Translations under genes and position numbers: made by a program
Shown here: positions 3,001-64,000 of the stretch, one piece after another
Layout of the letters: each line of letters opens with the position of its first letter
Position numbering within the stretch: position 1 is the first letter of the stretch
Notes under the pieces: model-generated
Database searches by the model: none
Seen by the model: the letters and a program-made list of their open reading frames with translations, nothing else
What the model was told of the DNA's origin: nothing
DNA from: Candidatus Zixiibacteriota bacterium
GTDB taxonomy: Bacteria; Zixibacteria; MSB-5A5; WJJR01
Assembly: GCA_016235085.1 (NCBI GenBank)
Contig: JACRMA010000043.1
Coordinates: 7,327 to 71,326, forward strand
Direction: 5' to 3'
Length of the DNA stretch: 64,000 bases

Positions 3001-6000
3001 GAATGTCGGAATCGTACCGTCGGGATCGCTGCCATGGGTGCGGAAGACCAGCGTTCCCCCCTCGAGGACTGATTTGGCACCGATGGGATCGAGCACCGGC
3101 GGGCGATTCGTGTTCGTCACCGTGATCGTCACGACCTCTGAGTCGGCCAGAGTCCCGTCGCTGGTAATGAACGTGACATTAAAGACTCCCGACTGGGTGA
3201 AACTGGGATTGAAGACGAACGAACCCGCCCCATTCAGCGAATCGACGAAGGTCGCATTGGCCGGCACGCCGAGCGCCGTCAGCGTCGGAATCGTGCCGTC
3301 CGGATCGGTCGCATGGGTGCGGAACGTTAAGTTCGTGTTTTCCGCCACCGTCTGCGCGCGGATCGAATCGAGCACCGGCGCGCGGTTTGTGTTCGTGACC
3401 GTAATGACGACGAGCTCAGAATCGGCCAATGTGCCATCACTGGTGATGAAGGTCACGTTATAGACGCCGGCCTGCGTGAAGTCGGGGTTGAGGACGAAAG
3501 AGCCCGCCCCATTCAGCGAATCCACAAAGGTGGAGTTGAGCGGGGCGCCGACCACGGCCAACGTCGGGATGGTCCCATCTGGATCGGTCGCATGAGCCCG
3601 GAAGGTCAAATTCGCGTTTTCGGCAACGGTCTTCGCCCTGATGGAGTCCAACACCGGCGGACGATTCGTGTTCGTCACCGTGATCACAACGACTTCCGAG
3701 TCGGCCAAGGTGCCATCGCTGGTGATAAACGTTACATTAAAGACGCCCGACTGGGTGAAGTCCGGATTGAAGACAAACGAGCCGGCGCCATTCAGCGAGT
3801 CCACAAATGTCGCGTTGAGCGGCACGCCGATAGCGGTCAGGGTTGGGATATTGCCGTCTGGATCGACCGCATGAGTGCGGAACGTCAGATTCGCATTCTC
3901 CGCCACTGATTTCGCCCGGATCGAGTCGAGCACCGGGGCGCGATTCGTATTGGTCACCGTGATGGCGACGACTTCGGAATCGGCCAGGAAACCATCACTG
4001 GTGATGAATGTCACATTAAAGACACCCGACTGGGTGAAGTCTGGATTGAACACGAATGATCCAGCGCCATTCAGAGAATCTACGAACGCCGCGTTGACCG
4101 GCAATCCCACCGCGGACAGTGACGGGGCGTTGCCATCGGGATCGGTTGCGTGAACTCGGACGGAGAGATTCGCGCCCTCCGCGACTGTCTTCGCACGGAT
4201 CGAATCCAGGACTGGCGGCAGGTTCACGTTGGACACCGTGATGACCACGATTTCTGAATCTGCCAATGTGCCGTCGCTGGCTATAAACGTCACGTTGAAA
4301 GTCCCCGACTGCGTGTTGTCGGGCGTAAACGAGAAGGAGCCGGCGCCGTTGGTCGAATCCACGAACGTGGCATGCAGCGGCAGATTGACCGCGGTTAGAC
4401 TCGGGATCGTGGCATCAGGATCCGTGGCATGAGTCCGGAATCGCAGCAGTATCGATTCCTGGACAAACTTCGGTCCGATCGGATCGAGCACCGGACACTG
4501 GTTCCCGGCCTCGAGCACATTGATGCGCACCAGCTCGTTGTCGATCGCACCGGCGGGATCCTCGGCTGCAAACGAAATGAAGTACGTCCCTGATTGAACG
4601 AAACTCGGCTGGAATGTGAACAGGCCGGCACCGTTCCCGGAATCCACAAAGACAGCGTTTTGCGGCAGGAAACTCGTGAATAGCGTGATCAGATCACCAT
4701 CCGCGTCGACTGCGTGCACCCGAATCGAGAGTGTGCCGCCCTCGGTGATGGTCCGCGTCCGGATCGAATCCAAAACCGGGGTCCGATTCGTGTTGGTCAC
4801 CGTGATCGTTACCAACTCCGAATCAGCCAGCGTGCCGTCAGAGGCAATGAAGGTCACATTGAAGACACCAGACTGGTTGAAATCCGGGTTGAAGACAAAG
4901 GACCCAGCGCCGTTACCGGAATCGACCAGTGCTGCATTGGCTGGTACGCCGAGCGCTGTAAAGGCGGGAGCATTGCCGTCAGGATCGGTCGCATGAATCC
5001 GGAAGGTCAGATTCGCATTCTCGGCCACCGTCTTGGCACGAATTGAGTCGAGCACCGGGTCACGGTTCGTGTTGGTCACCGTGATCGCGACCACTTCCGA
5101 GTCCGCCAATGTTCCGTCACTGGCGATAAACGTCACATTGTAGACGCCAGATTGAGCGAAGCTCGGATTGAATACGAATGATCCTGCACCATTCAACGAA
5201 TCGACAAAGGTCGCATTCAGCGGAGCACCGACGGCGGTTAGGGTCGGGATGTTGCCATCCGGATCGGCTGCGTGTGTGCGGAATGTGAGATTCGCGTTCT
5301 CGGCAACGGTCTGAGCGCGGATCGAATCCAGCACTGGCGAACGGTTGGTGTTCGTGACCGTGATCGCGACCACTTCCGAGTCGGCCAGGGTTCCGTCACT
5401 GGTAATGAACGTCACATTGATGACGCCCGATTGCGTGAAGTCGGGATTGAAGACGAACGATCCGGCACCGTTGAGCGAGTCGACGAAGGTTGCGTTGAGA
5501 GGAACTCCCACCGCGGTCAAGGTCGGGATCGTGCCGTCCGGATCAGTCGCATGGGTGCGGAACGTGAGGTTCCCATTCTCCGCTACCGTCTTCGCCCGGA
5601 TCGAGTCGAGCACCGGTGGCAGGTTCACATTCGTCACCGTGATCGCGACGACCTCGGAGTCCGCCAATGTTCCGTCACTGCTGATGAAGGTCACATTGAT
5701 GGCACCCGACTGAGTGTAGTCCGGGTTGAACACGAAGGAACCGGCACCGTTCAGCGAATCGACGAAGGTCGCATTAGTCGGAATGCCGATCGCGGTTAGC
5801 GTCGGGACTGTGCCGTCCGGATCGGTCGCATGCACGCGGAAGGTCAGGTTCGAATTCTCGGCGACGGTCCGCGCGGAAGGTCAGGTTCGAATTCTCGGCG
5901 ACGGTCCGCGCCCGGATCGAATCCAGAACCGGCGGGAGACTTACGTTCGCAACTGTTACCGCCACCACTTCCGAGTCCGCCAGAGTCCCGTCGCTGGAGA

Positions 6001-9000
6001 TGAACGTCACGTTGTAGACGCCCGACTGCGTGAAGTCGGGATTGAAGACGAACGAACCGGCGCCGTTGAGTGAGTCCACGAACGTGGCATTGAGTGGCAC
6101 GCCAATGGCCGTCAAGGTCGGGATTGTGCCGTCCGGGTCAGTTGAATGAGTCCGGAAGGTCAGATTCGCGCCTTCGGCCACGGTCTTGGCTCGGATCGAA
6201 TCGAGCACCGGTGGCAGATTTACGTTCGTGACCGTGATAACCACGACTTCGGAGTCGGCTAGTGATCCGTCACTGGTAACGAACGTCACATTGATGACGC
6301 CCGATTGCGTGAAGTCCGGATTGAACACGAATGACCCGGCGCCATTTAACGAATCGACGAAGGTTGCGTTGGAAGGCACACCTACGGCAGTTAGAGTCGG
6401 GATGTTGCCGTCTGGATCGCTACCGTGGGTACGGAACGTGAGATTCGCACCTTCGGCGACAGTCTTGGCACGGATTGAATCCAGGACCGGTGAGCGATTC
6501 GTGTTCGTCACCGTGATGGTTACAACCTCACTGTCCGCCAACGAGCCGTCACTGGCGATGAACGTCACATTGATATCACCCGACTGTGTGAAGTCGGGAT
6601 TGAACACGAAGGAACCAGCGCCGTTCAGTGAATCGATGAAGGTCGCATTCGGGGGAACACCGATGGCACTGATAGTTGGTATGCTACCGTCTGGATCAGC
6701 GGCATGGGTCCGGATGGTCAGATTCGCATTCTCTGCTACCGACCTGGGACCAATCGCATCGAGAATCGGTGTCCGATTGGTGTTTGTCACCGTGATGACA
6801 ACCACCTCAGTGTCCGCCAGTGATCCATCGCTGGCGATCACGGTCAGATTGATCACGCCTGCCTGCGTGAAATCCGGATTAAACACCAGCGAGCCGGCAC
6901 CATTCAGCGAATCGACGAAGGTCGCGTTAGTCGGAATGCCGATCGCTGTTAGCGTCGGGATCGTGCCGTCCGGATCGGTTGCACGCGTGCGGAACGTGAG
7001 ATTGGCGCCTTCGGCAACTGACTTGGGTCCGATCGAATCCAGCACCGGGACCAGGTTCACATTCGTCACCGTGATCGTGACAACCTCGGAATCAGCAAGA
7101 GTCCCGTCCGTCGCAATAAACGTCACATTGATCACACCCGACTGCGTGTAGTCCGGGTTGAACACCAGTGAACCGGCACCATTCAGCGAATCAAAAAACG
7201 TCGCATTCGGAGGGACACCGAAAGCCGTCAGGGTCGGGATTGTGCCGTCGGCATCGGATGCTTGGGTCCGGAAGGTGAGATTGGCGCCTTCGGCGACAGT
7301 CCTCGCCCGAATTGAATCCAGCACCGGGGATCGATTCGTGTTCGTCACCGTGATGGTGACGACTTCGGAGTCCGCCAATGTGCCGTCAGTAGCAATGAAC
7401 GTCACGTTGATGACACCCGACTGCGTAAAGTCGGGGTTGAACACGAACAAACCCGCACCGTTCAGGGAATCCACGAACGTTGCGTTGATCGGCACGCCAA
7501 TGGCCGTCAGGGTCGGGATTGCGCCGTCCGGATCAGTCGCATTCGTCCGGAAAGTCAGATTGGCGCCCTCGGCGACACTCTTCGCCCGGATCGAGTCGAG
7601 CACCGGCGGCAAGTTTACGTTCGTGACCGTGATCGCCACAACTTCGGAATCCGCCAATGTCCCGTCACTGCTGATGAAGGTCACATTGATGACACCCGAC
7701 TGAGTGAAATCGGGATTGAACACGAATGAACCAGCACCATTCAAAGAGTCTACGAACACCGCATTGGGCGGAACTCCAACGGCGGTCAAGGTCGGGATCG
7801 TGCCGTCCGGATCGGTCGCGTGTGTGCGGAAGGATAGATTCGCGCCCTCAGTGACTGTCTTGGCACGGATCGAGTCGAGGACTGGCAGCAGGTTCACATT
7901 CGTCACGGTGATCGCCACGACCTCAGAGTCGGCCAATGTGCCGTCACTCGTAATGAACGTGACGTTAATCACACCCGACTGCGTGAAGTCGGGATTGAAG
8001 ACCAAGGAACCGGCGCCGTTGAGTGAATCGACGAACGTCGCGTTTGGTGGAACTCCGATCGCTGTTAGCGTCGGGATTGTGCCGTCTGGATCGGTCGCGT
8101 GCGCCCGGAAGGTCAGATTCGCGCCTTCGGCGACAGTCTTGGCACGGATCGAATCCAGCACCGGCGGCAGATTCACGTTCGTGACCGTGATCGCGACAAC
8201 CTCGGAGTCGGCCAATGTGCCGTCACTGGTGATGAACGTGAGATTGAAGACACCAGACTGCGTGAAGTCGGGATTGAAGACCAGGGAACCGGCACCGTTG
8301 AGTGAATCGACGAAAGTTGCATTCGGAGGAACACCAATCGCAGTTAGCGTCGGGACTGTGCCGTCTGGATCGGTCGCGTGCGTACGGAATGTCAGATTCG
8401 TGCCTTCGGCAACGGTTTTGGCCCGGATCGAGTCGAGTGCCGGCGGCAGGTTTACATTCGTCACCGTGATCGTGACGACCTCGGAATCCGCCAACGTCCC
8501 GTCACTGGTGATGAACGTCACATTGATGACACCCGACTGGGTGAAGTCGGGATTGAAGACGAAGGAACCAGCACCGTTGAGCGAATCGACAAATGCCGCA
8601 CTCAAAGGTACTCCGATCGCGGTCAACGTGGGAATTGTGGCGTCTGGATCAGTTGCGTGGGCGCGGAAGGTGAGATTAGCGCCCTCGGCAACGGTCTGCG
8701 CACGGATGGAGTCCAAAACCGGCGCACGGTTCGTGTTGGTCACCGTGATCACGACGACTTCGGAATCCGCCAATGTCCCGTCACTGCTAATGAACGTCAC
8801 ATTGAACACGCCCGCCTGAGTGAAGTCCGGATTGAAGACGAAGGAACCGGCGCCGTTCAGCGAATCGACGAAAGTTGCGTTGAGCGGAGCGCCTAGAACC
8901 GTAAAGGTCGGGACTGTGCCATCCGGATCGGTCGCCTGAGTGCGGAACGTCAAATTCGCATTCTCTGCTACCGTCTGGGCCCGAATCGAATCCAGGACCG

Positions 9001-12000
9001 GGGCACGGTTCGTGTTCGTCACCGTGATCGTGACGAGCTCGGAGTCGGCCAGGGCACCGTCACTGGTGATGAACGTTACATTAATGACACCCGACTGGGT
9101 AAAGTCCGGATTGAACACGAAGGAACCAGCACCGTTCAACGAATCGACGAAAGTCGCGTTGGGCGGTACACCAACCGCGGCCAGGGTCGGGATTGTTCCG
9201 TCCGGATCGGTTGTGTGAATCCGGAAGGTCAGATTCGCATTCTCCGCAACCGTCTTGGCGCGAATCGAATCAAGGACCGGCGGAAGGTTCACATTCGTCA
9301 CCGTAATCGTGACCACCTCAGAATCGGCAAGCGTGCCGTCGCTGGTGATGAAGGTCACGTTAATGCCACCCGCCTGGGTGTAGTCCGGATTGAACACGAA
9401 CGAACCGGCGCCGTTGAGCGAATCGACGAACACTGCATTGGCTGGCACACCCACGGCGGTTAGTGTGGGGATCGTGCTGTCGGGATCCGTCGCGTGTATC
9501 CGGAAAGTAAGATTGGCGCCTTCGGCGACAGTCTTCGCCCGGATCGAATCCAGAACCGGCGGTAGACTCACGTTCGCAACTGTTATCGCCACCACTTCCG
9601 AGTCAGCCAGTGTCCCGTCGCTGGTGATGAACGTCACGTTGTCGACGCCCGACTGCGTGAAGTCCGGATTGAAGACGAATGATCCGGCACCGTTGAGCGA
9701 ATCGACGAACGTAGCATTGAGTGGCAAGCCAATGGCCGTCAGTATCGGGATCGTGCCGTCCGGATCGGTCGCATGGGTGCGGAAGGTCAGATTCGCGCCC
9801 TCGGCCACGGTCTTGGCTCGGATCGAATCGAGCACCGGCGGCAAGTTCACGTTCGTGACTGTGATCGCCACAACTTCCGAGTCAGCCAGGGTTCCGTCGC
9901 TGGTAATGAACGTCACATTGATGACGCCCGACTGCGTGTAGTCGGGATTGAACACGAATGAACCAGCACCATTAAGCGAATCGACGAACACTGAGTTGGG
10001 TGGTGCCCCGACGACCACAAACGTCGGATTCGTGCCGTCCGGGTCAGTCGCATGCGTCCGGAAGGTGAGATTGGCGCCCTCTGCCACAGTCTTCGCCCGG
10101 ATTGAATCCAGGACCGGGGAGCGATTCGTGTTCGTCACGGTAATCGTGACGACTTCACTGTCGGCCAACGATCCGTCGCTGGCGATGAATGTCACGGTTA
10201 CATTGCCGGATTGGGTGTAGTTCGGGTTGAACACGAATGATCCCGCACCGTTCAGCGAATCGACAAAGGTCGCATTAGGGGGAACTCCGACGGCGCTGAG
10301 AGTCGGGACGGTACCATCTGGGTCAGAGGCATGTGTCCGGAACGTCAGGTTGGCATTCTCTGCCACCGTCTTCGCCCGAATTGAGTCGAGGACCGGCGGC
10401 AAGTTCACGTTTGTGACCGTGATCGTCACTAGCTCAGAGTCTGCCAGCGTTCCGTCACTGGTGATGAACGTCACATTAATCACGCCCGACTGCGTGTAGT
10501 CGGGGTTGAACACGAAGGATCCGGCGCCATTCAGCGAATCGACGAACACTGCATTCGGTGGAGCACCCACGGCGGTCAGTGTCGGAATCGTGCCATCCGG
10601 GTCAGTGCCATGCGCCCGGAAGGTCAGATTGGCGCCCTCCGCCACCGTCTTCGCGCGAATCGAATCCAGCACTGGTGAGCGATTCGTGTTCGTCACCGTG
10701 ATGGTCACGACTTCACTGTCCGCCAACGAACCGTCACTGGCGATGAACGTCACATTAATGGCACCCGACTGCGTAAAGTCGGGATTGAACACAAAGGAAC
10801 CAGCACCATTGAGTGAATCAACGAATGTGGCGTTCGCCGGAACGCCGACTGCCGTCAGGGTTGGGATTGTCCCATCGGCATCCGAGGCGTGCGTACGGAA
10901 CGTGAGGTTTGCGTTCTCGGCGACACTCTGCGCACCAATAGCGTCGAGGACAGGTACCCGGTTCGTATTCGTCACCGTAATGGCAACCACTTCGGAATCC
11001 GCGAGCGCTCCATCGCTGGAGATGAAGGTCACATTAATCACGCCCGACTGGGTGAAGTCGGGGTTGAACACGAATGACCCGGCACCGTTGAGCGAATCGA
11101 CGAACACCGCATTCGGTGGAACGCCGACGGCAGTCAATGTTGGAATCGTGCCGTCCGGATCGCTGGCGTGGGTGCGGAACGTCAGATTGGCGTTCTCGGC
11201 CACCGTCTTCGCCCGGATTGAATCCAAAGTCGGCGGCAAGTTCACGTTCGTGACGGTGATCGCCACAACCTCGGAGTCCGCCAGCGTGCCGTCGCTGGCG
11301 ATAAACGTCACATTAATCACGCCCGACTGGCTGTAGTCCGGATTGAACACCAGCGAACCCGCGCCGTTCAGCGAGTCGACAAACGTCGCATTCGGAGGGA
11401 CACCGAGAGCCGTCAGGGTCGGGACTGTGCCGTCGGGATCGGACCGGCGGGCGATCGGTGTTCGTGACCGTAATCGCCACCACCTCGGAATCGGCCAGAA
11501 TGCCATCGCTCGCGATGAAGGTCACGTTGATCACACCCGACTGCGTGAAATCGGGGTTGAAGACCAGAGAACCCGCACCATTGAGTGAATCCACGAACAC
11601 GGCGTTTGGTGGAGCTCCCACGGCCGTCAAAGTCGGGGTTGTCCCGTCTGGATCGGAGGCATGTGTCCGGAACGTCAGGTTGGCGTTCTCGGCGACCGTC
11701 TTCGCCCGGATCGAATCCAGAACCGGCGGCAGATTCACGTTTGTCACCGTGATCGCGACCACTTCCGAATCCGCCAGCGAGCCGTCCGACGTGATGAAGG
11801 TCACGTTGATCACGCCCGACTGCGTGAAGTCGGGGTTGAACACGAACGAACCTGCACCATTCAGCGAATCAACAAACACCGAGTTGGGCGGCGCACCGAC
11901 CACGGTGAAGGTGGGATTGGTGCCATCGGGATCGGTCGCGTGTGTTCGGAAGGTCAGATTCGCACCCTCGGCGACACTCTGCGCGCGGATCGAGTCGAGC

Positions 12001-13503: not shown

Positions 13504-16140
13504 CTACTTCATCAACACCATCTTCTTCGTTTCCGAATTGCCGCCGGTGGTCAGGCGATAGAAGTACAGCCCGCTGGCCATCGTTTGTCCGGCTTGATCA
13601 GTGCCATCCCATATGTATTCATATCGGCCGGGCCCCAGGGTCCCATCGAACAGGGTCTTCACCTGCTGGCCCAGGAGATTGTAGACGACGAGGTAGACGG
13701 CAACGGACGGACCGCTGCTGCCGAGATCGCCCAGAGTGAACGCAATCGTTGTGGTTGGGTTGAACGGATTCGGATAGTTCTGGTCCAGGACAAAGCTTCT
13801 CGGAACCGGACTGACTCCGGAAACTTCGATCTGGCTGGCGTCCGGCGCGGCGAGCTTAAGCTCCTGCAGGCGGACCGTTGGTTCGCCCAGTGCCGGCGCG
13901 GAAGACAACGGAATGCGCAACACATCATGCCGGCCGGTCCGCATGTTGGGTGGACCACCCATCAGATTAAAGAGGAGCGCGCGCAAGTGCCCCTGGCCAT
14001 CGTCACGGAACCGCAACTGCATGTTGGTCGCGACGGCAAGGGCCTCCGGAGAACCGAGTGTCACCGTCGCGGGATCGTAGGCCAGTTCGACTTGGGCGCC
14101 CGCGACGTCCGAAGGCAGATCGGCCGACAGGCGGAAGGCGCCGCTGGGACCATCGTTACGGTCATAAATGAACTGCACGGTGGCGGGTGTGCCACCCACA
14201 GGCGGCACTCCGGGAGCCGGAACCACCGGGGCGCCGAAGATGTGGTTGATAATCGCCTGGAGATCGAAGACGTCGACGAAATTGTCGGCGTTGGTATTCG
14301 CCGCGCCAAACTGTCTCGGGTTAAACGGGAATGTCCCGAGGATGTAACCGACGACCGTGACGATATCCGCGACGTCAATACGCGTGTCCAGGTTTGCATC
14401 GCCCAGATTGTCGACCATGATGACGCCGTCGGTGGTCGCGATCGATGCAGAAGGCTCGGTGGGATCGGGATCGATCGAACCCCAGGCATCTTCGAACATC
14501 ACCGGGTAGGCGCCCGGTGCAACCGCTGGATTGATCGAACCAATCACATTGAATAGAACGGTTGTTGTTCCGTTCGCCACCGACTGGCCGGTCAGTGAGA
14601 AAGCGACGATGCGAATTCGTCCGGCGGTGGTTCCCATGTTGTCGTATACCGTGAATCCGATGAGTCTGTCGCTGGTTTGGATGGCGCTCGGTGTGAAGAT
14701 CGTGGCATCGTAGACAAAATCGAACTGAACACCGTAGGAAGCCTTCACATTCAGAAAGTTGATCGGAATCACCACTCCGCCCGTGCCGGGGACTCCGCCC
14801 TGCGCCTCCTGGCCGGGAGCAGACGTGGAGAACAAGCGATCAACCTGTACTTGATTGACCGTGATGGTCACGTTGCAGATAACGCTGAGATTATTCGCTG
14901 TGTCCTTGGCCTGGAATCCGACCGAGAAAATTCCGGACTGCGTGAAGCTGGGCGTCCATTTGAACGTTCCGGACGCCGAACCGGTCCCGCTGACCGGATT
15001 CGCGGGGAGCAGGGAATAACCCGTCGGCGCGTTCACGGGATACAATTGAATCGGATCATTATTGGCATCCGAAGCGCTGATGTTGAACGAGACTTCCTGT
15101 CCCTGATCGACCGTATAGCTGGTGTTTGACGGGCAGATCACCACCGGTGCCACGTTTCCGGTCGGCTGGGTCACCGTGATTGTGACATTGCAAAAACCGC
15201 TGGAGAGACCACCGGGTTGATCCGTCGCCTGGAAACTGACCGTGAAGTTTCCCGTCTGCGAGCTCGTCGGAACCCACGAGAAGTTTCCCGTCGCGGATCC
15301 CGTACCGACTACCGGGTTTGAGGGCGAAAACGATGCGCCGGTTGGCAGGTTGGTCGCGAGGAGAGAAACTGTGTTTCCGTCGGGATCAGTCGCGGGAACA
15401 GCGAATTGCACCAACTGCCCGGCACTGACCGTCACAGGCGCAGGGCAACTTGTGATTGAAGGAGGGTTGTTCCCGCCTCCGGTGGTAATCGTGATCGTTC
15501 CATTGATGAGAACAGGACGCCAAATAAGCAAACCGCTGATTTGAGCAAAGGTGTTGTCCGTTTGCGGATAAACTGGGTCATTCTCAAATGCGATGCTGGC
15601 CGTCTGCGGGGACGCCGTGGACCGGATGAGCCAGCGCATACGAACCGTCGCTCCCGCACCCGGCAGGAAGATATCGGGAGCGGATTTTGGGGCCTGATCC
15701 AACGCGAGCAGTTTGTAGACACCCGATGACGGAAGGCCTTCCGACCAGATGTCCGCATCCATCGCAGGAGACACGGTGGAGAAAGCCGTGCCCCGGATTT
15801 CCGTTGAGCGCTCCGCGGCGATTACCGTGTCAACGCCTGTTATGACAGTATCCAGTAACGGCGAGATAACACTCGGGTCATAGCGAACGCGAAATGTGAA
15901 CGCTCCTAATGTGTCCGCGTTGCGAATGTACAGATCGACATTCACTGTATCGCCCGGGTGCGCGATGGTCACGTTCACGATCCGCATGGTGTCCAGGGTC
16001 GACGGAGTCTGTGCCCAGGCGGAGCCAGCCGATAGGAGCAGCGATGCCGCCGACACAATGGCAATGACCAGAATGATGCGGCACAGCCCTGACACGGGTC
16101 TTCCGCAGGATCTTTCTCGATTTGTTTTCATGGACTTCAT
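13504..16140 (-). CDS. T9SS-secreted modular scaffoldin-like protein: signal peptide, cohesin-like module, two He_PIG/Ig-like domains, second cohesin-like module, dockerin-like module, third cohesin-like module, Por/T9SS C-terminal sorting domain.
   Basis: ORF 13504..16230 with the likely start at ATG 16140 (MKSMKTNRE..., signal peptide ...LLSAGSAWAQ). Cohesin-like signatures: GDTVNVDLYIRNADTLGAFTFRVRYDPSVISPLLDTV, GVQFDFVYDATIFTP, AGAQVELAYDPATVTL. Dockerin-like pair: GDANLDTRIDVADIVTVVGYILG / NTNADNFVDVFDLQAIINHIFG. C-terminus LDQNYPNPFNPTTTIAFTL...SGLYFYRLTTGGNSETKKMVLMK is a typical T9SS CTD. Confidence 0.75.
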   Translation of the reverse strand: MKSMKTNRERSCGRPVSGLCRIILVIAIVSAASLLLSAGSAWAQTPSTLDTMRIVNVTIAHPGDTVNVDLYIRNADTLGAFTFRVRYDPSVISPLLDTVITGVDTVIAAERSTEIRGTAFSTVSPAMDADIWSEGLPSSGVYKLLALDQAPKSAPDIFLPGAGATVRMRWLIRSTASPQTASIAFENDPVYPQTDNTFAQISGLLIWRPVLINGTITITTGGGNNPPSITSCPAPVTVSAGQLVQFAVPATDPDGNTVSLLATNLPTGASFSPSNPVVGTGSATGNFSWVPTSSQTGNFTVSFQATDQPGGLSSGFCNVTITVTQPTGNVAPVVICPSNTSYTVDQGQEVSFNISASDANNDPIQLYPVNAPTGYSLLPANPVSGTGSASGTFKWTPSFTQSGIFSVGFQAKDTANNLSVICNVTITVNQVQVDRLFSTSAPGQEAQGGVPGTGGVVIPINFLNVKASYGVQFDFVYDATIFTPSAIQTSDRLIGFTVYDNMGTTAGRIRIVAFSLTGQSVANGTTTVLFNVIGSINPAVAPGAYPVMFEDAWGSIDPDPTEPSASIATTDGVIMVDNLGDANLDTRIDVADIVTVVGYILGTFPFNPRQFGAANTNADNFVDVFDLQAIINHIFGAPVVPAPGVPPVGGTPATVQFIYDRNDGPSGAFRLSADLPSDVAGAQVELAYDPATVTLGSPEALAVATNMQLRFRDDGQGHLRALLFNLMGGPPNMRTGRHDVLRIPLSSAPALGEPTVRLQELKLAAPDASQIEVSGVSPVPRSFVLDQNYPNPFNPTTTIAFTLGDLGSSGPSVAVYLVVYNLLGQQVKTLFDGTLGPGRYEYIWDGTDQAGQTMASGLYFYRLTTGGNSETKKMVLMK

Positions 16141-16866
16141 TGAGAAGCCCCCTTTCGGGACGGTTAATATGCCTGCAAGGTCTTGCATACTTTCGACTTC
16201 GTCATGGTCAGCCATTCTCTGCACCTGCATGTGGCTTCACCACATTCCGCACTGCATCCGTCGTCGCTGGCCGCCGCGCATCGCTTGGCGGTCAACAGGT
16301 TAGCCCCACTCTTCGGGGCCTCCGGGGAGGGGGGCATCCGGGCAATGACAGGCGGCGTTCAAACCGTTCGCAGTAAGTGCATTGCGGATTCCTGCTTCGC
16401 CAAGGCTTCGCAGGATTTAGGTGGAATGGCGTTCCGCGCCGGAGCCGATCACCGTCCTTTCGCGATGTGGGGGTGGGGTGAAAGTGGACAAAGCGGACGA
16501 GGTGGACGAAGTGGACGAGGACCAAGAGGCAAGTGTCGTCACACGCGTGGGCTCGCCGGCGACCGGGTGGACTGTGTCCACTGGGCGGGTGGGCTCAAGC
16601 TTGTGGCGAACAATGGTGGTCACTGGGCATCCTCTCTATCAACAAAAAACCCCGTCGCGAACAGATCATGCGCCCTAAACTGGGCGCAGCGGGCGGGGAT
16701 CAGCAGTACTTCAAGCAGCATAACTTGTTTCGACCTGCATTTGCTCCTGCCCGCCTGATTGACGGCAGGGGCGGCTTCATCGTTCTCAGTTGTGCAGTCT
16801 TTGTTCCTCCTCTCGTCCGCCTGGCACGCCGTTCCGTCGGCGCCTCGCATTTCTTGGTAAGCAGAT

Positions 16867-16913: not shown

Positions 16914-19862
16914 TTACTTCATCAGCACCATCTTCTTGGTGGCGGTGAAGTCCTTGGCAGTCAGGCGATAGAAGTACATACCGCTGGCAACCGAGGAGCC
17001 GTTCTCGGAGCTGCCATCCCACGACACGCTCACAGGACCCTGGCCGTTACCGGAGAAGGTACGGACAACCTGACCCGCGATGTTGTAGATGGACAGATTC
17101 CAATCAGACTGGTCCTTCAAGGAGAACTGGATCACCGTGCCCGCGTTGAACGGGTTCGGGTAGTTCTGCAGGAGGGCGTAGCTGGTCGGGACTCTCGAGG
17201 AGGCGTTGACGGACAGAAGCGCACCGCTGGCATCCGACACCTGGGACTCAGCAAGCTCGACCGTGCCGTTGCCGGAGACCGGAACGGTGATCAGGTTGTT
17301 GAGACCAGCCGGGACCTTGGCACCCGCCGCAGTTCCGTAAACCAGAATGCGGAGTTCGCCGTTGGCCGAGGTGGACTTGACCTGGAGGTTGGTGCCCGAC
17401 ACGAGCGAGGGCTGGCCAACCGTCACGCCAGAGTAGTGGTACACGAACAGGGCACCGCCGAGATCGACGTTGGCGTTCGTGCGGATGTTCAACGTACCGT
17501 TGGTCACGTCAGAATTGACGGCCACCGAGTTGGCATAGGGCGACAGCTTGAAGCCCGAGCCCTGCGGCGGGAACGGCTGTGCGTCACCGGTGATGATGCG
17601 AATGAGGTACACCAGATCGGCGACGGTCAGAGGCATGCCATCGTTGTTGATGTCGCTGGCAAGAACCTGAACCGCACGCAGGTTGGCGTTGGACTCAAAC
17701 ACGTTGATGCCGGAGATGAAGTAGCGGCTGTACAGGACCGCGTCGCCGATTTCGTTGGCCACGCCGTTCAAGTTGAGGTCGCCACGATCATCGGGCGGAC
17801 GCTGGATGCAAATCGCACCTGAGCAGAAGTCGATGAACGGATTGACTTCGTGACCCGGCTTGTTGTTGCCGACACAGGTCCAATCCGGGCCCAGGGTGAT
17901 GTCAGGATCGGTCGTGGAAGGAACGTACAGCGTGTAACCGTCCTTGGACGACAGCGAGTTGTCGGTGCAGTCGAACGAGCAGAAGCCAACATGCGGACAG
18001 AGGCCGATGTTGTTGAGGTTGCCGTCTACCTGGAACGTGATCAGGGCAATCACACCGCCGAGGACAAACGCGCCCGGAGCGGGGGTGATGCCGTTGTTGA
18101 TGTCGGCAATACCGACGATCTTCACGTAGCCATTCGGGCATCCACCGCCGCAATTGCCGCCGAAGGCGCCAGTGCGATAGGTGAAATACTCGAAGGACGG
18201 ATCAAGGTTCGGACCACGGGCAACCTTCGAGAAGATCAGGATGCTTTGATCGTAGCAGATCAGGAATTCAAAGCCGCCTGTGCCGCCTGAAGGACCGGTT
18301 GCCGGGTTGACCCAGATACCGAGGGTCTTTTGCACGCCATAAAGGGACGGCGCGTAGGTCACAATGTGCCCGATGGCGGCGGAATCCGGATCCACGATGC
18401 AGATCTGATACGGGGATTCGAACAGCACGTCGACGCAGCACGGAGCCGAGGTGACACAACCATCAAAAGCGGTGAAGCACACGCTGTAAGGCGTGTTGTC
18501 GCCGGACGGACGAGCGCCGACGATCTGGTTGCCGGAGATGCTGAGCCATGACGGCCAAGTACCGGACGCGGCATAAGTCAGGGCATCGCCGTCAGCCTGG
18601 CTGGCCGGGCCCATGGTGATCGAGAGGGGCACGCCAGTCGGGGCGGTCACGGGAGCCGGATTCGAGCAGGTTGCCGGATCGTTGGTGACGGACAAGGTGA
18701 AGTTGCAAGTGGCCGATCCGCCAGTCGCATCCTGCACGGTGACGGTGATCGCATGGTCGCCGACTTGCTGGCAGTTGGACTCGTCTGTCCACACGCCATT
18801 CACATCGACGGAACCAGGAGCACCACCACTGAAGGTGTAAGGCGGGCAACCGCCGGTCACGCCGATCGTCTTGGAGGCAAGCTCGCCCCAATGGACGGAG
18901 ACGTTACCGCAGTTGCTGGTTACTGGAGCGGTTCCAGCCACATCAACGTGGAACGTGGCGGTGCCGCAATTGCCTTGACCGTTGGAATTGTAAACTTCGA
19001 ACACCACGTCAAAGCCGGGGTAGTCGGCGCATGTCGGGGTGTATGACCAGGTACCAGCACCAGCCGGCGGGCCAGGAGTTGTCGTGGAGACAACACCGGG
19101 GCCAGAGATCTTGGCGAAGGTATTGGCTTCGTCGTCCGAGGAAGAAAGAGCCTTGGACGCCGCGACGCCAACCGTCGCACTCACGGTAGCCAGATTGGTG
19201 GTGTTGGTCGGGCACGGGTTGCAAATGACATTGACGACGCCCTTGTTGAATACCGCAACGATCGGCGGTGTGCCGGAGGCTCTCACGAAAACAAAGTGAT
19301 TTGCCGGATCGGCGCAAGCGGTGTCAATCTCGAACGACCCGGGACAAATCGGGTTCGTCCCGGCGTTGATTGTGAACGAGGGCGAGGTGCCATCCGTACC
19401 GGCTGGCAGAGTCGCTCCAAGGATGATACCACGAACGATCATCATTCCAGCCGGAGACGAGCTAACCGGCATGGTGCTCACATCAAGACCTTCGTCTCCA
19501 GTAGACGGAGTCGCATCAGGACCCGGCCAAATCGTGCCGAATCCCGTGCCGCACGCGGCCGCATCGGGAGCCTGATAACCGTTGTAGATCATGACATCGG
19601 CGAGCTTGCCATTCATACGGCCCGAATTGACAGTGAGACCCAGGCTTGTGATGAATGATCCACCGCTAACGGTACGAATAGTCAACGGCGCGATGATGTA
19701 CTTGAGGGCCAGGTCGTTGGTGACGAACACACCGATGTTGGCAGTGCCACCAGCCCCGATCGTGAGCGACTCGACGGTCATTTGGTTGGCCGCAAAGATC
19801 GCCGCACTCGACAGGAAAACCAAACAGGCTGCCAGGCAAATTGTTAATGCAAAACGCTTCAT
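16914..19862 (-). CDS. T9SS-secreted large surface protein: signal peptide, Cys-rich regions, at least one cohesin-like module, a dockerin-like module and a Por/T9SS C-terminal sorting domain.
   Basis: ORF 16914..19925 with the likely start at ATG 19862 (MKRFALTICLAACLVFLSSAAIFA), preceded by GGAG 8 nt upstream. Cohesin-like GFEFLICYDQSILIFSKV. Dockerin-like DLNLNGVANEIGDAVLYSRYF...DINNDGMPLTVADLVYLIRIITG. C-terminus LLQNYPNPFNAGTVIQFSL...SGMYFYRLTAKDFTATKKMVLMK. Confidence 0.75.
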   Translation of the reverse strand: MKRFALTICLAACLVFLSSAAIFAANQMTVESLTIGAGGTANIGVFVTNDLALKYIIAPLTIRTVSGGSFITSLGLTVNSGRMNGKLADVMIYNGYQAPDAAACGTGFGTIWPGPDATPSTGDEGLDVSTMPVSSSPAGMMIVRGIILGATLPAGTDGTSPSFTINAGTNPICPGSFEIDTACADPANHFVFVRASGTPPIVAVFNKGVVNVICNPCPTNTTNLATVSATVGVAASKALSSSDDEANTFAKISGPGVVSTTTPGPPAGAGTWSYTPTCADYPGFDVVFEVYNSNGQGNCGTATFHVDVAGTAPVTSNCGNVSVHWGELASKTIGVTGGCPPYTFSGGAPGSVDVNGVWTDESNCQQVGDHAITVTVQDATGGSATCNFTLSVTNDPATCSNPAPVTAPTGVPLSITMGPASQADGDALTYAASGTWPSWLSISGNQIVGARPSGDNTPYSVCFTAFDGCVTSAPCCVDVLFESPYQICIVDPDSAAIGHIVTYAPSLYGVQKTLGIWVNPATGPSGGTGGFEFLICYDQSILIFSKVARGPNLDPSFEYFTYRTGAFGGNCGGGCPNGYVKIVGIADINNGITPAPGAFVLGGVIALITFQVDGNLNNIGLCPHVGFCSFDCTDNSLSSKDGYTLYVPSTTDPDITLGPDWTCVGNNKPGHEVNPFIDFCSGAICIQRPPDDRGDLNLNGVANEIGDAVLYSRYFISGINVFESNANLRAVQVLASDINNDGMPLTVADLVYLIRIITGDAQPFPPQGSGFKLSPYANSVAVNSDVTNGTLNIRTNANVDLGGALFVYHYSGVTVGQPSLVSGTNLQVKSTSANGELRILVYGTAAGAKVPAGLNNLITVPVSGNGTVELAESQVSDASGALLSVNASSRVPTSYALLQNYPNPFNAGTVIQFSLKDQSDWNLSIYNIAGQVVRTFSGNGQGPVSVSWDGSSENGSSVASGMYFYRLTAKDFTATKKMVLMK

Positions 19863-21511
19863 CTGTTTTGCTCCTTTAAAATTCCTCTCAGTTGACGTTT
19901 TCGAACTCCCCAAAGAGAGACACATTCTGTCGGGGAATCCACGCGATAGTCATTCCCCCTGATTTCGCGCTGAGCATTTGCTTTGTGCCTCAATACCGAT
20001 TTTCTCTAAACCTCACCTCCGTAGATGTCTAAATCGTTCACGGTTTCTGTTGGTTGAAGCGAGCGTTTAAAGACTCTTCGTTCGCAACACCTCCTTTCAC
20101 CGAAAATTGGTTGGGTTGATGGTTAACAACATCAATCATGGTTTTCAATCCCAGCCGGCGGCACAAGAGCGTGGGGCACCGGCGATTTTTTCAACAGAGG
20201 CTTGGGGCCCAAACGCCCGAAACACAGACACGAAAAGCGGCCGCATCAAGACACGGAGTCTCGACACCCAACCGCGTGCAGGACAAGAAACTCGAAGAAA
20301 TGTAAGGCGTGTGGACCATTCACGACCTCCCAATTCGCGTTTCCACTGTCACTTGCGTTCACCGAAGATCCTCTCAGGAGACATTCCCACACCGGGCCAC
20401 GCTCGTGAGCCGAATCGTCCGACTGCTGTCTGCCTTTCCATTTCCCGCTGCGAGCGGGTTGGTGAACTTGTCCGCGAACTTCGCGGTGTGACCTTGGTGG
20501 TTACTGCGCTTGCCGCCTCAGACCATGACTTCAATCCGTCCGACCAGCGCCGCCACCCGAGACTCTTGTAGAACTACCTGTGTTTCAGCTTTGTACCATA
20601 TCGCATGTGGTAACATCACTTGGCGAACTGAATATAGACCCCACCCCCCGATCTGTCAATACCCTAAATGGTTTTTTTTCTCTCATTTGTTGCATCAGCA
20701 GACCGGGCAAATCTGCTTGGGATGACAAGGAGTTAACGTGCGTGACAGTTTGGTGGAAGCGGGACCACCGCGCCTGCGGCGGGGGGCGGGCTGACGGGGA
20801 GGTCCCAACCGCAATACGATCCGCAGACGGGCGACCTCTGATCTACATAAGGTGAGGTCTGATTTTGACAGCCAGTTGAAGTTCTCAGAATTTGAATGGG
20901 GCGGGTTGCGGAGACAAGGTCCAGCTCACGCAATGGCGTGTTGTCAGACAGTGCCTCGTGAATTCGAGGCCGCATCAAGTTGTCCCACCTCCCACTTTCA
21001 CAGTCCGGGAAGAGGCCTGAATCTCGTCTGCGATTTCATCCTGTGCGCTCTCAAGTCGTTGATCCACAACACAATCTACTTCTCCATCCCGTGCGCACAT
21101 CACCTCCTCAGCAGGTGGGACTTTAGGAGCGGCGGGACCTCATGAGACCATCGGAACGGATGATGATCTGGAGAAGAAAGCGGACGATTATGGCGTGGCG
21201 GTAGAAGCGGAAGGGTGGTCTCAAGGGTGATCGTCCTTAAACCGGCGACCGCGCCTTAACCGACGGCATCCATTGGCTTCTTGACGAGGGATGCCCATGG
21301 GAAGCACCGGACGCAGTATGAGCAATTGTCCCCCCGGGGGATCGTATCTCGAAATGTAGTGATTCGGCAATACTACAAGGCCCCGCCACCCATGTTGGTC
21401 CCCGGCTCTTCGGTGGATTCTGGGATCCAACATGACGCGACGAGGGCGGAGAGTCAATCCCCCCACCCTCATCAACGCCAGGAACGAAAACTCGCTGCAA
21501 TCCCTAAGTGC

Positions 21512-22255
21512 TCAGCACGGAGGCTGTCCGTTGTTGAAGACGTACTCAATCAAGTAGATCAGGTCGAAGATGTCCGCCACATCATCGCAGTTGACATCGG
21601 CGAGCGTGGGCGGGCATGACGGACCATTATTGAAGAGATAGTCCTGAAGCGCGGTTATGTCAAATATGTCTGTGACCTGGTCTTGGTTTAAGTCGCCTCG
21701 GGAGGTCGGGCGCACCGTTACGCTCCCGCTGGTCCAGTCCACAGGTGAAATGAATGAGAAGGTGGGCGTCATGAACCAACTGCCAACGCCACCGGCCGTG
21801 AAGGAAACAGTACGATCTTGAAGGGTATCCGCCCAAGCGTCTGGACAGACCGTGTGGACAAGCAATTTGATCAAATTGCCGGATGTGTAGGCGGGAATGG
21901 CGGTTCCGTAACCGGTGATTTGTATGGCCGCGGGGCTGTAATATTGCAACCCCACAGACCAGCTGGCAGTCAGAGTTCCCGCACTGCTCCAGATCGCGAT
22001 TGAATCCCAGTAAGCCAGGTCGGGCCGACTCATGGTAACCAGGAGTTGAAAATATTCAATTGGCTCGTCCATGTTCTGAATGAAGACGGTAATGGTATCC
22101 TGCACATTCCAACCAGAGGTGGTATCACCTAGATCGACGTAAACCTTAGGGGTTTGCGCCCACAGAGATTTTGCACTCCCAGGGAAAGACGCGACGACAA
22201 TGCTGGTCATAAGCAGCAGAACACCACTCCAAACCTTCCGCCGATAGTTCTCCAT
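21512..22255 (-). CDS. Small secreted dockerin-domain protein (signal peptide plus ~150-aa unknown domain plus C-terminal double dockerin-like repeat).
   Basis: N-terminus MENYRRKVWSGVLLLMTSIVVASFPGSAKSLWAQ is a signal peptide. C-terminus DLNQDQVTDIFDITALQDYLFNNGPSCPP...DVNCDDVADIFDLIYLIEYVFNNGQPPC. AGGAGG lies 8 nt upstream of the ATG. The gene is lower-GC than its surroundings. Confidence 0.6.
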   Translation of the reverse strand: MENYRRKVWSGVLLLMTSIVVASFPGSAKSLWAQTPKVYVDLGDTTSGWNVQDTITVFIQNMDEPIEYFQLLVTMSRPDLAYWDSIAIWSSAGTLTASWSVGLQYYSPAAIQITGYGTAIPAYTSGNLIKLLVHTVCPDAWADTLQDRTVSFTAGGVGSWFMTPTFSFISPVDWTSGSVTVRPTSRGDLNQDQVTDIFDITALQDYLFNNGPSCPPTLADVNCDDVADIFDLIYLIEYVFNNGQPPC

Positions 22256-22637
22256 TAGGCACCCTCCTGTTAAGTGAGTTTGTTAGAGTTCTGGCTAGAC
22301 AGCATAACACCACCAACCTCAAGCATAGCAGCACAGAACTAACGTGTCAAGATGTGGGGGCTGATTACTTGCAATCTTGATGTTTTAATTTAGCGGAGCC
22401 TTGGCCCGCAGACGATAATTCTCGACCGTGTATGCCACTGTCCCAAAAGCGTGTTTGAAGAGACCGGACAGAATCGTCCGGACAACCAGATTGAAGCGAT
22501 ACCGGCAGGCCGGACACTTCTTTCCGGCCTCTCGAACTCACTAGGGTGACAGGTATTCCACGCACCCTTAAGTCAGTGGATCACACGAATGAACAACATC
22601 TGAACAACATTGTCGTGCTCTGGTCTTCTGGAGGTCG

Positions 22638-63900: not shown

Positions 63901-64000
63901 CCGTCTCCGTTGTTGTGCAGCAGGGAGACGTTGTCACTGCCCTTGTTGGCGACTGCCAGATCGACTGCCCCATCGCGATCGAGGTCCGCAGCCACGATGG
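60963..64000 (-). CDS. FG-GAP/VCBS-repeat beta-propeller protein with a C-terminal double dockerin-like module; partial, N-terminus beyond the window end.
   Basis: Repeated DLDxDGYxDLAVANxGSNNVSVL FG-GAP-like units. C-terminus ELNDDWIIDVLDVIASIEIVY...DVNCDGNVDLLDIIHLISYAFQNGPAPCW. Confidence 0.65.
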   Translation of the reverse strand, partial: IVAADLDRDGAVDLAVANKGSDNVSLLHNNGDGTFLSPVNCPAGSGPAATCVADLDADGYFDLAVANSGSNNVSVLTNNQNGTFASSVSYTAGINPSGVVVADVDRDGYLDLVVSNHGGGDVTVLINNGNATFSAAVHYSAGANPIALVAAQLTFDLDIDLAVANEGSNDVSILRNRGDGTFDAPQNFPADSMPASISAADLTGDGYLDLAITNRGSNRLVILQNDCCGNFFTTVNSLTSSLPSAVAVADFDVSGSPDLVIANSGDNTISIRLNSCIAALDAVDREDDKGIGSLRSAIAYANANPGPDTITFSASSFSLQLDRPLPPLSDLTGGTTILGLKPPGTGSPMSPGFEIRGDGNAAPVSGPGLVVQSSQNRIEGLVIGGLDGPGIAITGPHAISNTIMGCLFNNTGQGIDLSNDGPTPNDPGDADIGPNMLVNHPVFDSLVEFDVDIFSIFGTAPPLSRVELYAARGFYDGHTCPPALTNRGVSCQFIDSVSADVAGKFRIDSVPAPWPLVVEATATDTSGNTSEFSADLTLMSTSSLVVSNTADTGDGSLRWAILAANAHEGVDTITFTASGIIQPETPLPPLTDLSGGTVIDGFSAPGALPPSKPSVILWGYFSYAWGDTVPGLHIQSSNNRIVGLAMANFIGPSVAVSGSGSDSNTITRCRFYAHSGLLAQKSVPWIDIGNDGTTINDTGDLDSGPNARLNYPEFDSVFQVGADTFTVFGTAHPRAKVELYLAAEFGNPSLQPGSLNHGPAYQFLGSATADGFGKFQFGSVARPEWSQVTATATDSAGNTSEFSVNKLLTPDPLRITAYSELVPVGIKTSGFGALSPALQVIVISPANAQGKRDTIGPAINTFGSRAVYDSLTDWDGGGLPDSRVIIASPDTGTYRITWVLIGDPGSYLTGIGIDGHAEVRHRISFSSSALKFGGAADTSSFRLAPPTRGELNDDWIIDVLDVIASIEIVYNGAPSPEPADRADVNCDGNVDLLDIIHLISYAFQNGPAPCW

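What the first reader, a model, noticed from the sequence alone, without database searches (positions are those of the whole stretch)
21512..22255. Small dockerin-only secreted protein, and a second dockerin-tailed FG-GAP propeller at the window end: candidate cargo for the scaffold
Both proteins end in a duplicated D.N.D..VD..D...L.....NG..P.C segment of the same style. The small gene sits in a lower-GC stretch, possibly horizontally acquired. They are natural ligands for the cohesin-like modules upstream.
Basis: seen in the sequence. Interest (0 to 1): 0.5.

Follow-up and report, generated by a model that had tools for sequence, protein, structure and literature searches.

The report
Secreted cohesin-plus-dockerin connector protein
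The small gene does not encode a bare dockerin tag: it encodes a secreted two-module protein, a hidden "socket" (cohesin) joined to a calcium-binding "plug" (dockerin), from a large unstudied family in uncultivated bacteria, so it is ordinary in kind but more likely a connector than cargo.

Summary
The window comes from a candidate division Zixibacteria MAG. The ORF at 21512..22255 (-) is real: it has an AGGAGG RBS and a signal peptide, and is deposited as a hypothetical protein. Its C-terminal 64 residues are a genuine duplicated dockerin (Pfam Dockerin_1 27.5 bits, cut-off 22.9; canonical Ca loops; family profile against PDB dockerins E 3e-10). The FG-GAP/VCBS protein at 60963..63995 (-), 1471 aa in full, ends in the same dockerin subtype, and so do all nine of its orthologs checked.

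The N-domain defines at least 249 protein clusters. Of 148 listed representatives, 128 carry the same C-terminal dockerin tail, and 5 of 110 score with Pfam Cohesin.

In four other Zixibacteria loci the gene follows a cohesin-only paralog rather than a scaffold.

Best reading: a non-cellulosomal cohesin-dockerin connector, or possibly a self-assembling unit. Partners are untested. The low GC is real but is weak evidence for horizontal transfer.

Verdict: new member of a known kind, moderate interest.

The parts
21512..22255 (-). Gene for the 247-aa secreted cohesin-dockerin protein (HZB43_05830); stop codon at 21512..21514
   Evidence: ORF list; sequence; 100% match to P0001
22263..22268 (-). 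Shine-Dalgarno AGGAGG, 7 nt upstream of the ATG at 22255
   Evidence: read directly
22322..22350 (-). Sigma-70-like promoter match (TTGACA-17-TATGCT with TG), about 67 nt upstream of the ATG; consensus match only
   Evidence: 2 sites found against 1.7 expected in shuffles, so weak
22157..22255 (-). Signal peptide, aa 1-33 (…SAKSLWA|QTPK); the cleavage site is inferred
   Evidence: basic n-region, hydrophobic core and A-x-A-like site read; AQTPK is invariant at the start of the mature domain in homologs; the same AWAQTP junction occurs in the 908-aa protein; the model shows a helix at 2-22
21707..22156 (-). Cryptic cohesin-fold domain, aa 34-183
21515..21706 (-). Dockerin, aa 184-247, two F-hand repeats each followed by FNNG..P..C
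21659..21694 (-). Ca-binding loop 1, DLNQDQVTDIFD (aa 188-199)
   Evidence: D/N at positions 1, 3, 5, 9 and 12
21563..21598 (-). Ca-binding loop 2, DVNCDDVADIFD (aa 220-231); Cys223 covaries with the C-terminal Cys247
60963..63995 (-). C-terminal 1010 aa of a 1471-aa FG-GAP/VCBS repeat protein; its N-terminus lies beyond the window end
   Evidence: Pfam FG-GAP_3 E 7.5e-41; full-length P0045
60966..61157 (-). Dockerin of the FG-GAP protein (aa 947-1010 of the in-window part), ending ..QNGPAPCW
   Evidence: tail HMM 72.6 bits; Pfam Dockerin_1 21.3 bits; the tail is conserved in 9 orthologs
13504..16230 (-). 908-aa surface protein: cohesin (aa ~86-250), He_PIG/Big_9 Ig domains, cohesin (aa 486-596), internal dockerin (aa 609-668, nt 14227..14406), T9SS type A sorting domain (aa 819-905). 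A candidate partner, not shown to be one
17565..17786 (-). Weak dockerin-like module (aa 714-787) inside the 1003-aa T9SS-tailed protein at 16914..19925; its second loop has one extra residue
   Evidence: tail HMM 13.8 bits, E 0.003; alignment; no Pfam dockerin hit

Best explanation
The 247-aa product is a Sec-exported, two-module cohesin-dockerin protein. A divergent type-I-like cohesin (aa 34-183) is joined by a linker of about 5 residues to a C-terminal, internally duplicated, Ca-binding dockerin (aa 184-247). The dockerin probably carries a disulfide clasp between Cys223 in loop 2 and the terminal Cys247.

It most likely works as a non-catalytic connector in a non-cellulosomal cohesin-dockerin assembly of the cell envelope. 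Its dockerin would plug into a cohesin on another protein. Candidates are the cohesin-only paralog encoded next to its orthologs in other Zixibacteria, or the T9SS-anchored 908-aa protein in this window. Its own cohesin would offer a socket for a further dockerin-bearing protein, such as the FG-GAP/VCBS protein, which carries the same dockerin subtype.

Shown: the gene, the signal-peptide-like N-terminus, the dockerin by sequence and by fold, the cohesin fold, and the size and architecture of the family.

Inferred: Ca binding, the disulfide, every binding partner, and the location of the assembly.
For: Dockerin:
- Pfam 27.5 bits, above cut-off.
- PDB dockerins by single sequence, and about 30 PDB dockerins by family profile, best E 3e-10.

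Cohesin:
- AF2 model with pLDDT 69.5.
- Foldseek top 36 are all cohesins.
- 5 of 110 family members score with Pfam Cohesin (best 2.7e-7), and no competing family appears.
- The first 50 residues align to the N-terminal cohesin of the 908-aa protein (hhalign E 0.0015).

Architecture is conserved:
- 249 clusters at E<=1e-3.
- 128 of 148 representatives have the dockerin tail within a few residues of the C-terminus.
- 61 of 110 hit Pfam Dockerin_1.

Possible partners exist:
- Pfam-supported cohesins on a T9SS-tailed protein in the window.
- A cohesin-only paralog immediately upstream in four ortholog loci (hhalign prob 98.3%, E 2e-14).
- The FG-GAP protein and nine orthologs share the tail subtype.

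Precedents:
- R. bromii Amy4, which carries its own cohesin and dockerin (PMC4611034).
- The A. fulgidus Doc(ORF2375)/Coh(ORF2376) pair in adjacent genes (PMC9705933).
- A cohesin scaffoldin-like protein with a conserved C-terminal domain for cell-surface attachment in Cloacimonadota (PMC8542988).
Against: - No binding was tested, and specificity cannot be read from sequence.
- The cohesin is invisible to Pfam and to a PDB profile search in this protein. Cohesin membership therefore rests on a medium-confidence model plus transitive family hits. A cohesin-like sandwich need not bind dockerins.
- The organism is probably diderm: TamB and T9SS sorting domains are present in the window. Neither the small protein nor the FG-GAP protein has a T9SS C-terminal domain. 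How they would reach surface-anchored scaffolds is unexplained.
- Neighbourhood with the scaffold is not conserved.
- The window copy lacks the 28-aa Cys-rich insertion of its closest relatives and has Y in place of the family's conserved G in the 'GFQ' motif. It may be a drifting paralog.
Confidence: 0.55

Rival explanations
1. Self-assembling unit. The cohesin of one molecule binds the dockerin of the next, giving head-to-tail dimers or open chains. This would be independent of the neighbouring scaffold. In canonical loci the cohesin-only paralog would act as the chain end or base.
For: - One cohesin plus one dockerin is the conserved, minimal architecture across about 250 clusters.
- The linker is only about 5 residues, which I infer favours intermolecular over intramolecular docking.
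- Both dockerin repeats carry near-identical putative contact positions (I-F at positions 10/11 of both loops).
- A cohesin-only paralog lies adjacent in four loci.
Against: - There is no evidence at all on specificity.
- In well-studied systems a protein's own cohesin and dockerin usually do not match (established cellulosome knowledge).
- The window copy has no cohesin-only neighbour.
Confidence: 0.2
2. One reading: a dockerin-tagged passenger (cargo) for the cohesins of the adjacent T9SS-anchored proteins. The N-domain would be a passive or ligand-binding beta-sandwich, not a dockerin receptor.
For: - Cohesins and T9SS tails are present 5-8 kb away on the same strand.
- The N-domain does not reach any sequence threshold for cohesin in this protein.
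- The conserved G of the cohesin-like GF motif is replaced.
Against: - The fold matches are exclusively cohesins at the top of two independent searches.
- Family members score with Pfam Cohesin.
- Synteny with the scaffold is absent in orthologs.
- There is a 1.6-kb gap and a separate promoter-like site.
Confidence: 0.15
3. The tail is only a Ca-dependent, disulfide-clasped stabilising or export-related C-terminal module and does not mediate cohesin binding. The whole 'system' would be a coincidence of common extracellular domains.
For: - The tail is always at the extreme C-terminus and ends in P-C plus 0-2 residues on very different proteins, which resembles a sorting tag.
- Non-cellulosomal dockerins mostly have unknown roles (PMC9012536).
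- Weak similarity to the C-terminus of NCBIfam Omp28-related selenoprotein.
Against: - The strong association of this tail with a cohesin-fold domain in the same polypeptide (128 of 148), and with cohesin-bearing proteins in the window, is what a matched pair would look like.
- Archaeal non-cellulosomal pairs have been shown to bind (PMC9012536, PMC9705933).
Confidence: 0.1

Closest known systems
Adaptor scaffoldins of Ruminococcus flavefaciens (ScaC, ScaH)
   Same: [quoted passage not shown]
   Different: - ScaC and ScaH belong to a Gram-positive cellulosome with CAZyme cargo and sortase anchoring.
- Here the host is a probably diderm Zixibacterium, and the dockerin-bearing proteins found carry no glycoside hydrolase domain.
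- The cohesin is too divergent for Pfam.
- The dockerin carries a Cys pair and ends the protein at ..PC.
Archaeoglobus fulgidus ORF2375/ORF2376 non-cellulosomal cohesin-dockerin pair
   Same: - Non-cellulolytic organism, with adjacent genes supplying a dockerin (ORF2375) and a cohesin (ORF2376) that bind strongly (PMC9705933, PMC9012536).
- The ortholog loci here likewise pair a cohesin-only gene with a dockerin-bearing gene.
   Different: - Archaeal, larger protein (dockerin at aa 432-506).
- No detectable sequence similarity to the N-domain here.
- Binding is demonstrated there and untested here.
Ruminococcus bromii Amy4 (amylosome)
   Same: One polypeptide carries both a cohesin and a dockerin and may self-aggregate through them (PMC4611034).
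   Different: Amy4 is a large GH13 amylase; the protein here has no catalytic module.
Scaffoldin-like system of 'Ca. Stygibacter' (Cloacimonadota)
   Same: [quoted passage not shown] Membership of Cloacimonadota in the FCB superphylum is my own knowledge.
- The window has T9SS-tailed proteins with cohesins and dockerins.
   Different: - There the dockerin proteins are hydrolases and peptidases, and the scaffold has CBMs.
- Here the partners found are FG-GAP/Ig/cadherin-type adhesin-like proteins.
- No minimal Coh-Doc protein was described there.

Membership tests
Dockerin (Pfam PF00404, type I-like) | Score at or above the curated Pfam threshold | tested here: met
   Small protein scores 27.5 bits against cut-off 22.9. 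The FG-GAP tail alone scores 21.3 bits, just below cut-off, but 72.6 bits against the small protein's tail-family HMM.
Dockerin (Pfam PF00404, type I-like) | Tandem duplicated segment of about 22 residues, each with a 12-residue F-hand Ca loop (D/N at positions 1, 3, 5, 9, 12) followed by a helix | tested here: met
Dockerin (Pfam PF00404, type I-like) | Ca2+-dependent folding and binding to a cohesin | not testable with these tools
   Needs ITC or native PAGE with and without EDTA.
Cohesin (Pfam PF00963) | Sequence match to the family model | tested here: not met
   - No Pfam hit for aa 34-183, even at E<=10.
- No PDB cohesin found by profile.
- hhalign to the window's cohesins gives E 0.0015 over the first 50 residues of one (0.036 with the shallower profile) and no match to the other (E 0.19-0.25).
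- Transitive support only: 5 of 110 family members hit PF00963, best 2.7e-7.
Cohesin (Pfam PF00963) | Nine-stranded flattened beta-sandwich (jelly-roll) fold of about 140-150 residues | tested here: met
Cohesin (Pfam PF00963) | Binds a dockerin on the 8-3-6-5 face | not testable with these tools
   No coordinates or complex prediction were available.
Cellulosome / adaptor scaffoldin | Dockerin-bearing carbohydrate-active enzymes and CBM-bearing scaffoldin in the same system | tested here: not met
   The dockerin-bearing proteins in the window carry FG-GAP, Ig-like, He_PIG and T9SS domains. No glycoside hydrolase or CBM hit was seen in any protein scanned. Only this 64-kb window could be examined.
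T9SS cargo | C-terminal type A or type B sorting domain | tested here: not met
   There is no Por_Secre_tail or CHU_C hit in the small protein or in the FG-GAP C-terminus; the dockerin is the extreme C-terminus. The 908-aa and 1003-aa neighbours do have the sorting domain.

The most novel reading that the evidence does not exclude
The family of at least 249 clusters of minimal [signal peptide]-[cohesin]-[5-residue linker]-[Cys-clasped dockerin] proteins are building blocks of a previously undescribed extracellular or periplasmic polymer. Subunits would join head to tail by cohesin-dockerin bonds into chains. These chains would be primed or capped by the cohesin-only paralog encoded next door in canonical Zixibacteria loci, downstream of an M48/Tricorn-like peptidase. 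The chains could be decorated with, or terminated by, dockerin-tailed adhesin-like proteins such as the FG-GAP protein.
Probability: 0.12. Interest if true: 0.7.

Novelty: new member of a known kind. Interest (0 to 1): 0.4.

Why it matters
Cohesin-dockerin pairs outside cellulosomes are widespread, but almost none has an assigned role. This case shows three things.
- Sequence models miss a whole family of cohesins, so genome censuses undercount the 'sockets'.
- A very common architecture in uncultivated bacteria is a minimal cohesin-plus-dockerin protein with no enzyme attached.
- In Zixibacteria this protein is paired with a cohesin-only paralog.

If the pair binds, it is a compact, probably disulfide-stabilised, orthogonal protein-protein connector. 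That would be useful for synthetic assemblies. It would also be a handle on how diderm FCB-group bacteria build surface protein complexes alongside T9SS-anchored proteins.

Tried and rejected
- hhalign of the N-domain profile against the two Pfam-supported cohesins of the 908-aa protein: not significant, or only the first 50 residues.
- Profile search of PDB sequences with the N-domain: no cohesin found.
- Word-indexed search with the tail alignment returned only short fragments (50-118 aa), so it is not a usable census.
- Exact look-ups of P0001, P0010 and P0045 were not on record. The MAG beyond the window could therefore not be read and no genome-wide census was made.
- The AF2 model of the FG-GAP C-terminal 240 aa had pLDDT 51. 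It was too poor to fold-search, so its dockerin rests on sequence only.
- Cluster look-up gave no taxon names for distant family members.
- Rfam, tRNA and Pfam scans of the ORF-poor 19926..21511 stretch found nothing.
- tblastn for the orthologs' conserved neighbours (cohesin-only paralog, M48 peptidase) in the window found nothing.
- Peer et al. 2009 (PMC3035643) is not held.
- Horizontal-transfer reading rejected as unproven. In orthologs the gene's GC3 equals that of its neighbours. In the window it is about 2.5-2.8 SD low, which among 26 genes is not compelling. All full-length relatives whose record title gives a phylum are Zixibacteria; L007 is titled only 'bacterium'.

Full report
**What is there**

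The ORF at 21512..22255 on the minus strand encodes 247 aa. An AGGAGG lies 7 nt before the ATG, and a sigma-70-like match lies about 67 nt upstream (consensus only). The product is 100% identical to hypothetical protein HZB43_05830 of a candidate division Zixibacteria MAG, on a 118,785-nt contig. The N-terminus (MENYRRK, hydrophobic core, SLWA|QTPK) reads as a Sec signal peptide. The AQTPK junction is invariant in the five closest homologs and recurs in the neighbouring 908-aa protein.

**The dockerin claim holds**

- Residues 184-247 score with Pfam Dockerin_1 at E 3.6e-6, 27.5 bits, above the 22.9 cut-off.
- They match solved dockerins by single sequence (5lxv_B, E 2.6e-4).
- A profile of 149 family members matches about 30 solved dockerins, best 4fl4_A at E 3e-10.
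- The two halves share 16 of 27 residues. Both start with a canonical 12-residue loop carrying D/N at positions 1, 3, 5, 9 and 12.

**The second protein**

The ORF at 60963..63995 (-) is the C-terminal 1010 aa of a 1471-aa VCBS/FG-GAP protein (P0045).

- Its last 64 residues score 21.3 bits with Pfam Dockerin_1, just under cut-off.
- They score 72.6 bits (E 1e-21) with an HMM built from the small protein's tail family, searched against all 924 six-frame ORFs of the window.
- Nine orthologs (35-59% identity) all end in the same tail, terminating ..PC plus one residue.
- An AF2 model of the last 240 aa was too poor to use (pLDDT 51). This dockerin therefore rests on sequence alone.

**The four dockerin-like modules**

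The same HMM finds exactly four dockerin-like modules in the window.

| Protein | Score |
|---|---|
| Small protein, 21512..22255 | 113.5 bits |
| FG-GAP protein, 60963..63995 | 72.6 bits |
| 908-aa protein, 13504..16230 (internal) | 29.5 bits |
| 1003-aa protein, 16914..19925 (internal) | 13.8 bits, E 0.003 |

Only the first two have the terminal NG..PC ending. The two internal modules sit in proteins that end in T9SS sorting domains.

**'Dockerin-only' is wrong**

Residues 34-183 have no Pfam, NCBIfam or PDB sequence match. The AF2 model (8-sequence alignment, pLDDT 69.5) gives a beta-sandwich at 38-181.

- Foldseek independently puts cohesins in the first 36 places (E 1e-7, target TM up to 0.78).

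Sequence-level support is indirect.

- An HMM of the N-domain, searched against 1.84 billion representatives, finds 249 clusters at E<=1e-3 and 102 at E<=1e-10. Nearly all are 250-450 aa with the domain directly after a signal peptide.
- Of 110 members scanned, 5 score with Pfam Cohesin (best 2.7e-7) and 61 with Dockerin_1. No other family appears apart from isolated EF-hand and He_PIG hits.
- Of 148 representatives, 128 carry the dockerin tail within a few residues of the C-terminus.

The protein is therefore a member of a large, unnamed family with the architecture [signal peptide]-[divergent cohesin]-[short linker]-[dockerin].

**Context**

- The gene lies between housekeeping genes (prmC, pmbA/tldD, prfA) and a block of giant surface proteins. 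These are the 1003-aa and 908-aa T9SS-tailed proteins, a 715-aa cadherin-like protein and two proteins of about 1,700-1,900 aa made of cadherin/Big_9 repeats.
- The 908-aa protein has two Pfam-supported cohesins (28.9 bits, and 23.4 bits which is just under cut-off).
- A cohesin-bearing, surface-anchored protein therefore exists 5-8 kb away. It is downstream on the same strand, after a 1.6-kb ORF-poor gap.
- The linkage is not conserved. Orthologs were found in Zixibacteria MAGs. In four of those loci (L001, L003, L007, L010; three titled Zixibacteria or from Zixibacteria records, L007 titled only 'bacterium') the gene follows an M48 peptidase fused to Tricorn/PD40 repeats and a secreted 212-273-aa protein.
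- That protein is a dockerin-less paralog of the same cohesin-like domain (hhalign prob 98.3%, E 2e-14 over 139 columns).
- The window has no such neighbour.
- A 70-aa ORF from another contig of the same MAG (HZB43_09745) is a truncated, more canonical paralog.
- An FG-GAP ortholog sits among housekeeping genes.

**Mechanism**

The best-supported reading is a connector. The dockerin plugs into a cohesin on another protein, and the protein's own cohesin receives another dockerin. This is as in adaptor scaffoldins (PMC12484212).

A serious rival is head-to-tail self-association, as proposed for R. bromii Amy4 (PMC4611034). The minimal conserved architecture and the roughly 5-residue linker fit this rival.

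The adjacent cohesin-only gene in canonical loci recalls the A. fulgidus ORF2376(Coh)/ORF2375(Doc) pair (PMC9705933).

One unresolved difficulty remains. The organism looks diderm (TamB and T9SS tails), yet neither dockerin-tailed protein has a T9SS domain. Their route to a surface scaffold is unknown.

**Cysteines**

In an alignment of 56 tails, Cys at position 4 of loop 2 ('VNCD') co-occurs with a C-terminal Cys in 34 sequences (a terminal 'PC' in nearly all of them). Only one tail has the loop Cys without it. Tails lacking the loop Cys place cysteines elsewhere. This suggests a disulfide clasp, which is inference only.

**GC content**

The gene has the lowest GC of 26 genes: 0.534 against 0.598 (SD 0.020), and GC3 0.633 against 0.707 (SD 0.027). 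In orthologs GC3 is not depressed. The deviation is about 2.5-2.8 SD on 248 codons. Every full-length relative whose record title gives a phylum is Zixibacterial (L007 is titled only 'bacterium'). Transfer from outside the phylum is not supported, and a diverging paralog is as likely.

**Comparison and novelty**

- Non-cellulosomal cohesins and dockerins are known in many bacteria and archaea (PMC9012536, citing Peer et al. 2009).
- A cohesin scaffold with a conserved C-terminal surface-attachment domain, plus dockerin-tailed enzymes, has been inferred in Cloacimonadota (PMC8542988).
- No paper in the library mentions Zixibacteria together with dockerin.

This is a new member of a known kind. 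What is new is the cryptic cohesin family, its size, and the conserved Coh-only/Coh-Doc gene pair. Function remains untested.

Noticed in passing
window 19926..21511: A 1.6-kb stretch between the small gene and the 1003-aa gene has no ORF over 154 aa and GC of 0.55. It has no Rfam, tRNA or Pfam hit. An 11/12 sigma-70-like match lies at 20659..20631 (-). This is unusually long for a non-coding gap in a bacterial genome.
   Followed up: partly
L001 6172..10828; L003 551..5066; L007 2333..6825; L010 1306..6828: Conserved three-gene arrangement in Zixibacteria-type MAGs: an M48 peptidase fused to Tricorn/PD40 repeats, then a secreted cohesin-only paralog (212-273 aa, motif DTIQGFEI..WDRPDF), then the cohesin-dockerin protein. 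The window copy has lost or never had this neighbourhood.
   Followed up: partly
window 21515..21706 and 60966..61157; 56 tails: Cys at position 4 of the second Ca loop (VNCD) co-occurs with a C-terminal Cys, usually in a terminal PC, in 34 of 56 tails (1 exception). Other tails place Cys pairs elsewhere. In the small-protein family Cys137 (cohesin) and Cys214 (inter-repeat linker) are also invariant. This suggests disulfide clasps.
   Followed up: partly
window 21512..22255, aa ~80-90: The window protein lacks the roughly 28-aa Cys-rich insertion (TCYKC...ACTTVVAYPCT) present in its five closest homologs. It also has EYFQ where the family has a conserved GFQ. It may be a diverging paralog.
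   Followed up: no
window 21515..21706: The tail gives a weak NCBIfam hit to the C-terminal 60 positions of NF045500, 'Omp28-related selenoprotein' (19.8 bits, far below the 200-bit cut-off). That family apparently ends in a similar dockerin-like tail.
   Followed up: no
window 16914..19925: The 1003-aa T9SS-tailed protein has a cohesin-like motif (GGFEFLICYDQSILIF) before, and another beta-rich module after, its weak dockerin-like module. Pfam recognises none of these. Its architecture parallels the 908-aa protein (cohesin, Ig, cohesin, dockerin, module, T9SS tail).
   Followed up: partly
window 625..11506: Two adjacent giant ORFs (1736 and 1910 aa) consist of about 20 cadherin-like/Big_9 repeats each. 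A 715-aa cadherin-like protein lies next to them. None has a dockerin or cohesin hit.
   Followed up: no
window 60963..63995: The FG-GAP protein contains an internal duplication of a roughly 250-aa module, each copy starting with a 'GSLR.AI..AN...DTITF' motif. This is followed by a Big_6-like Ig domain and a roughly 130-aa beta module before the dockerin.
   Followed up: no
P0010 (HZB43_09745, another contig of the same MAG): A 70-aa annotated protein consists of the dockerin tail only, beginning MTITPTSRGD. It looks like the truncated end of a second, more canonical cohesin-dockerin paralog in this genome.
   Followed up: partly
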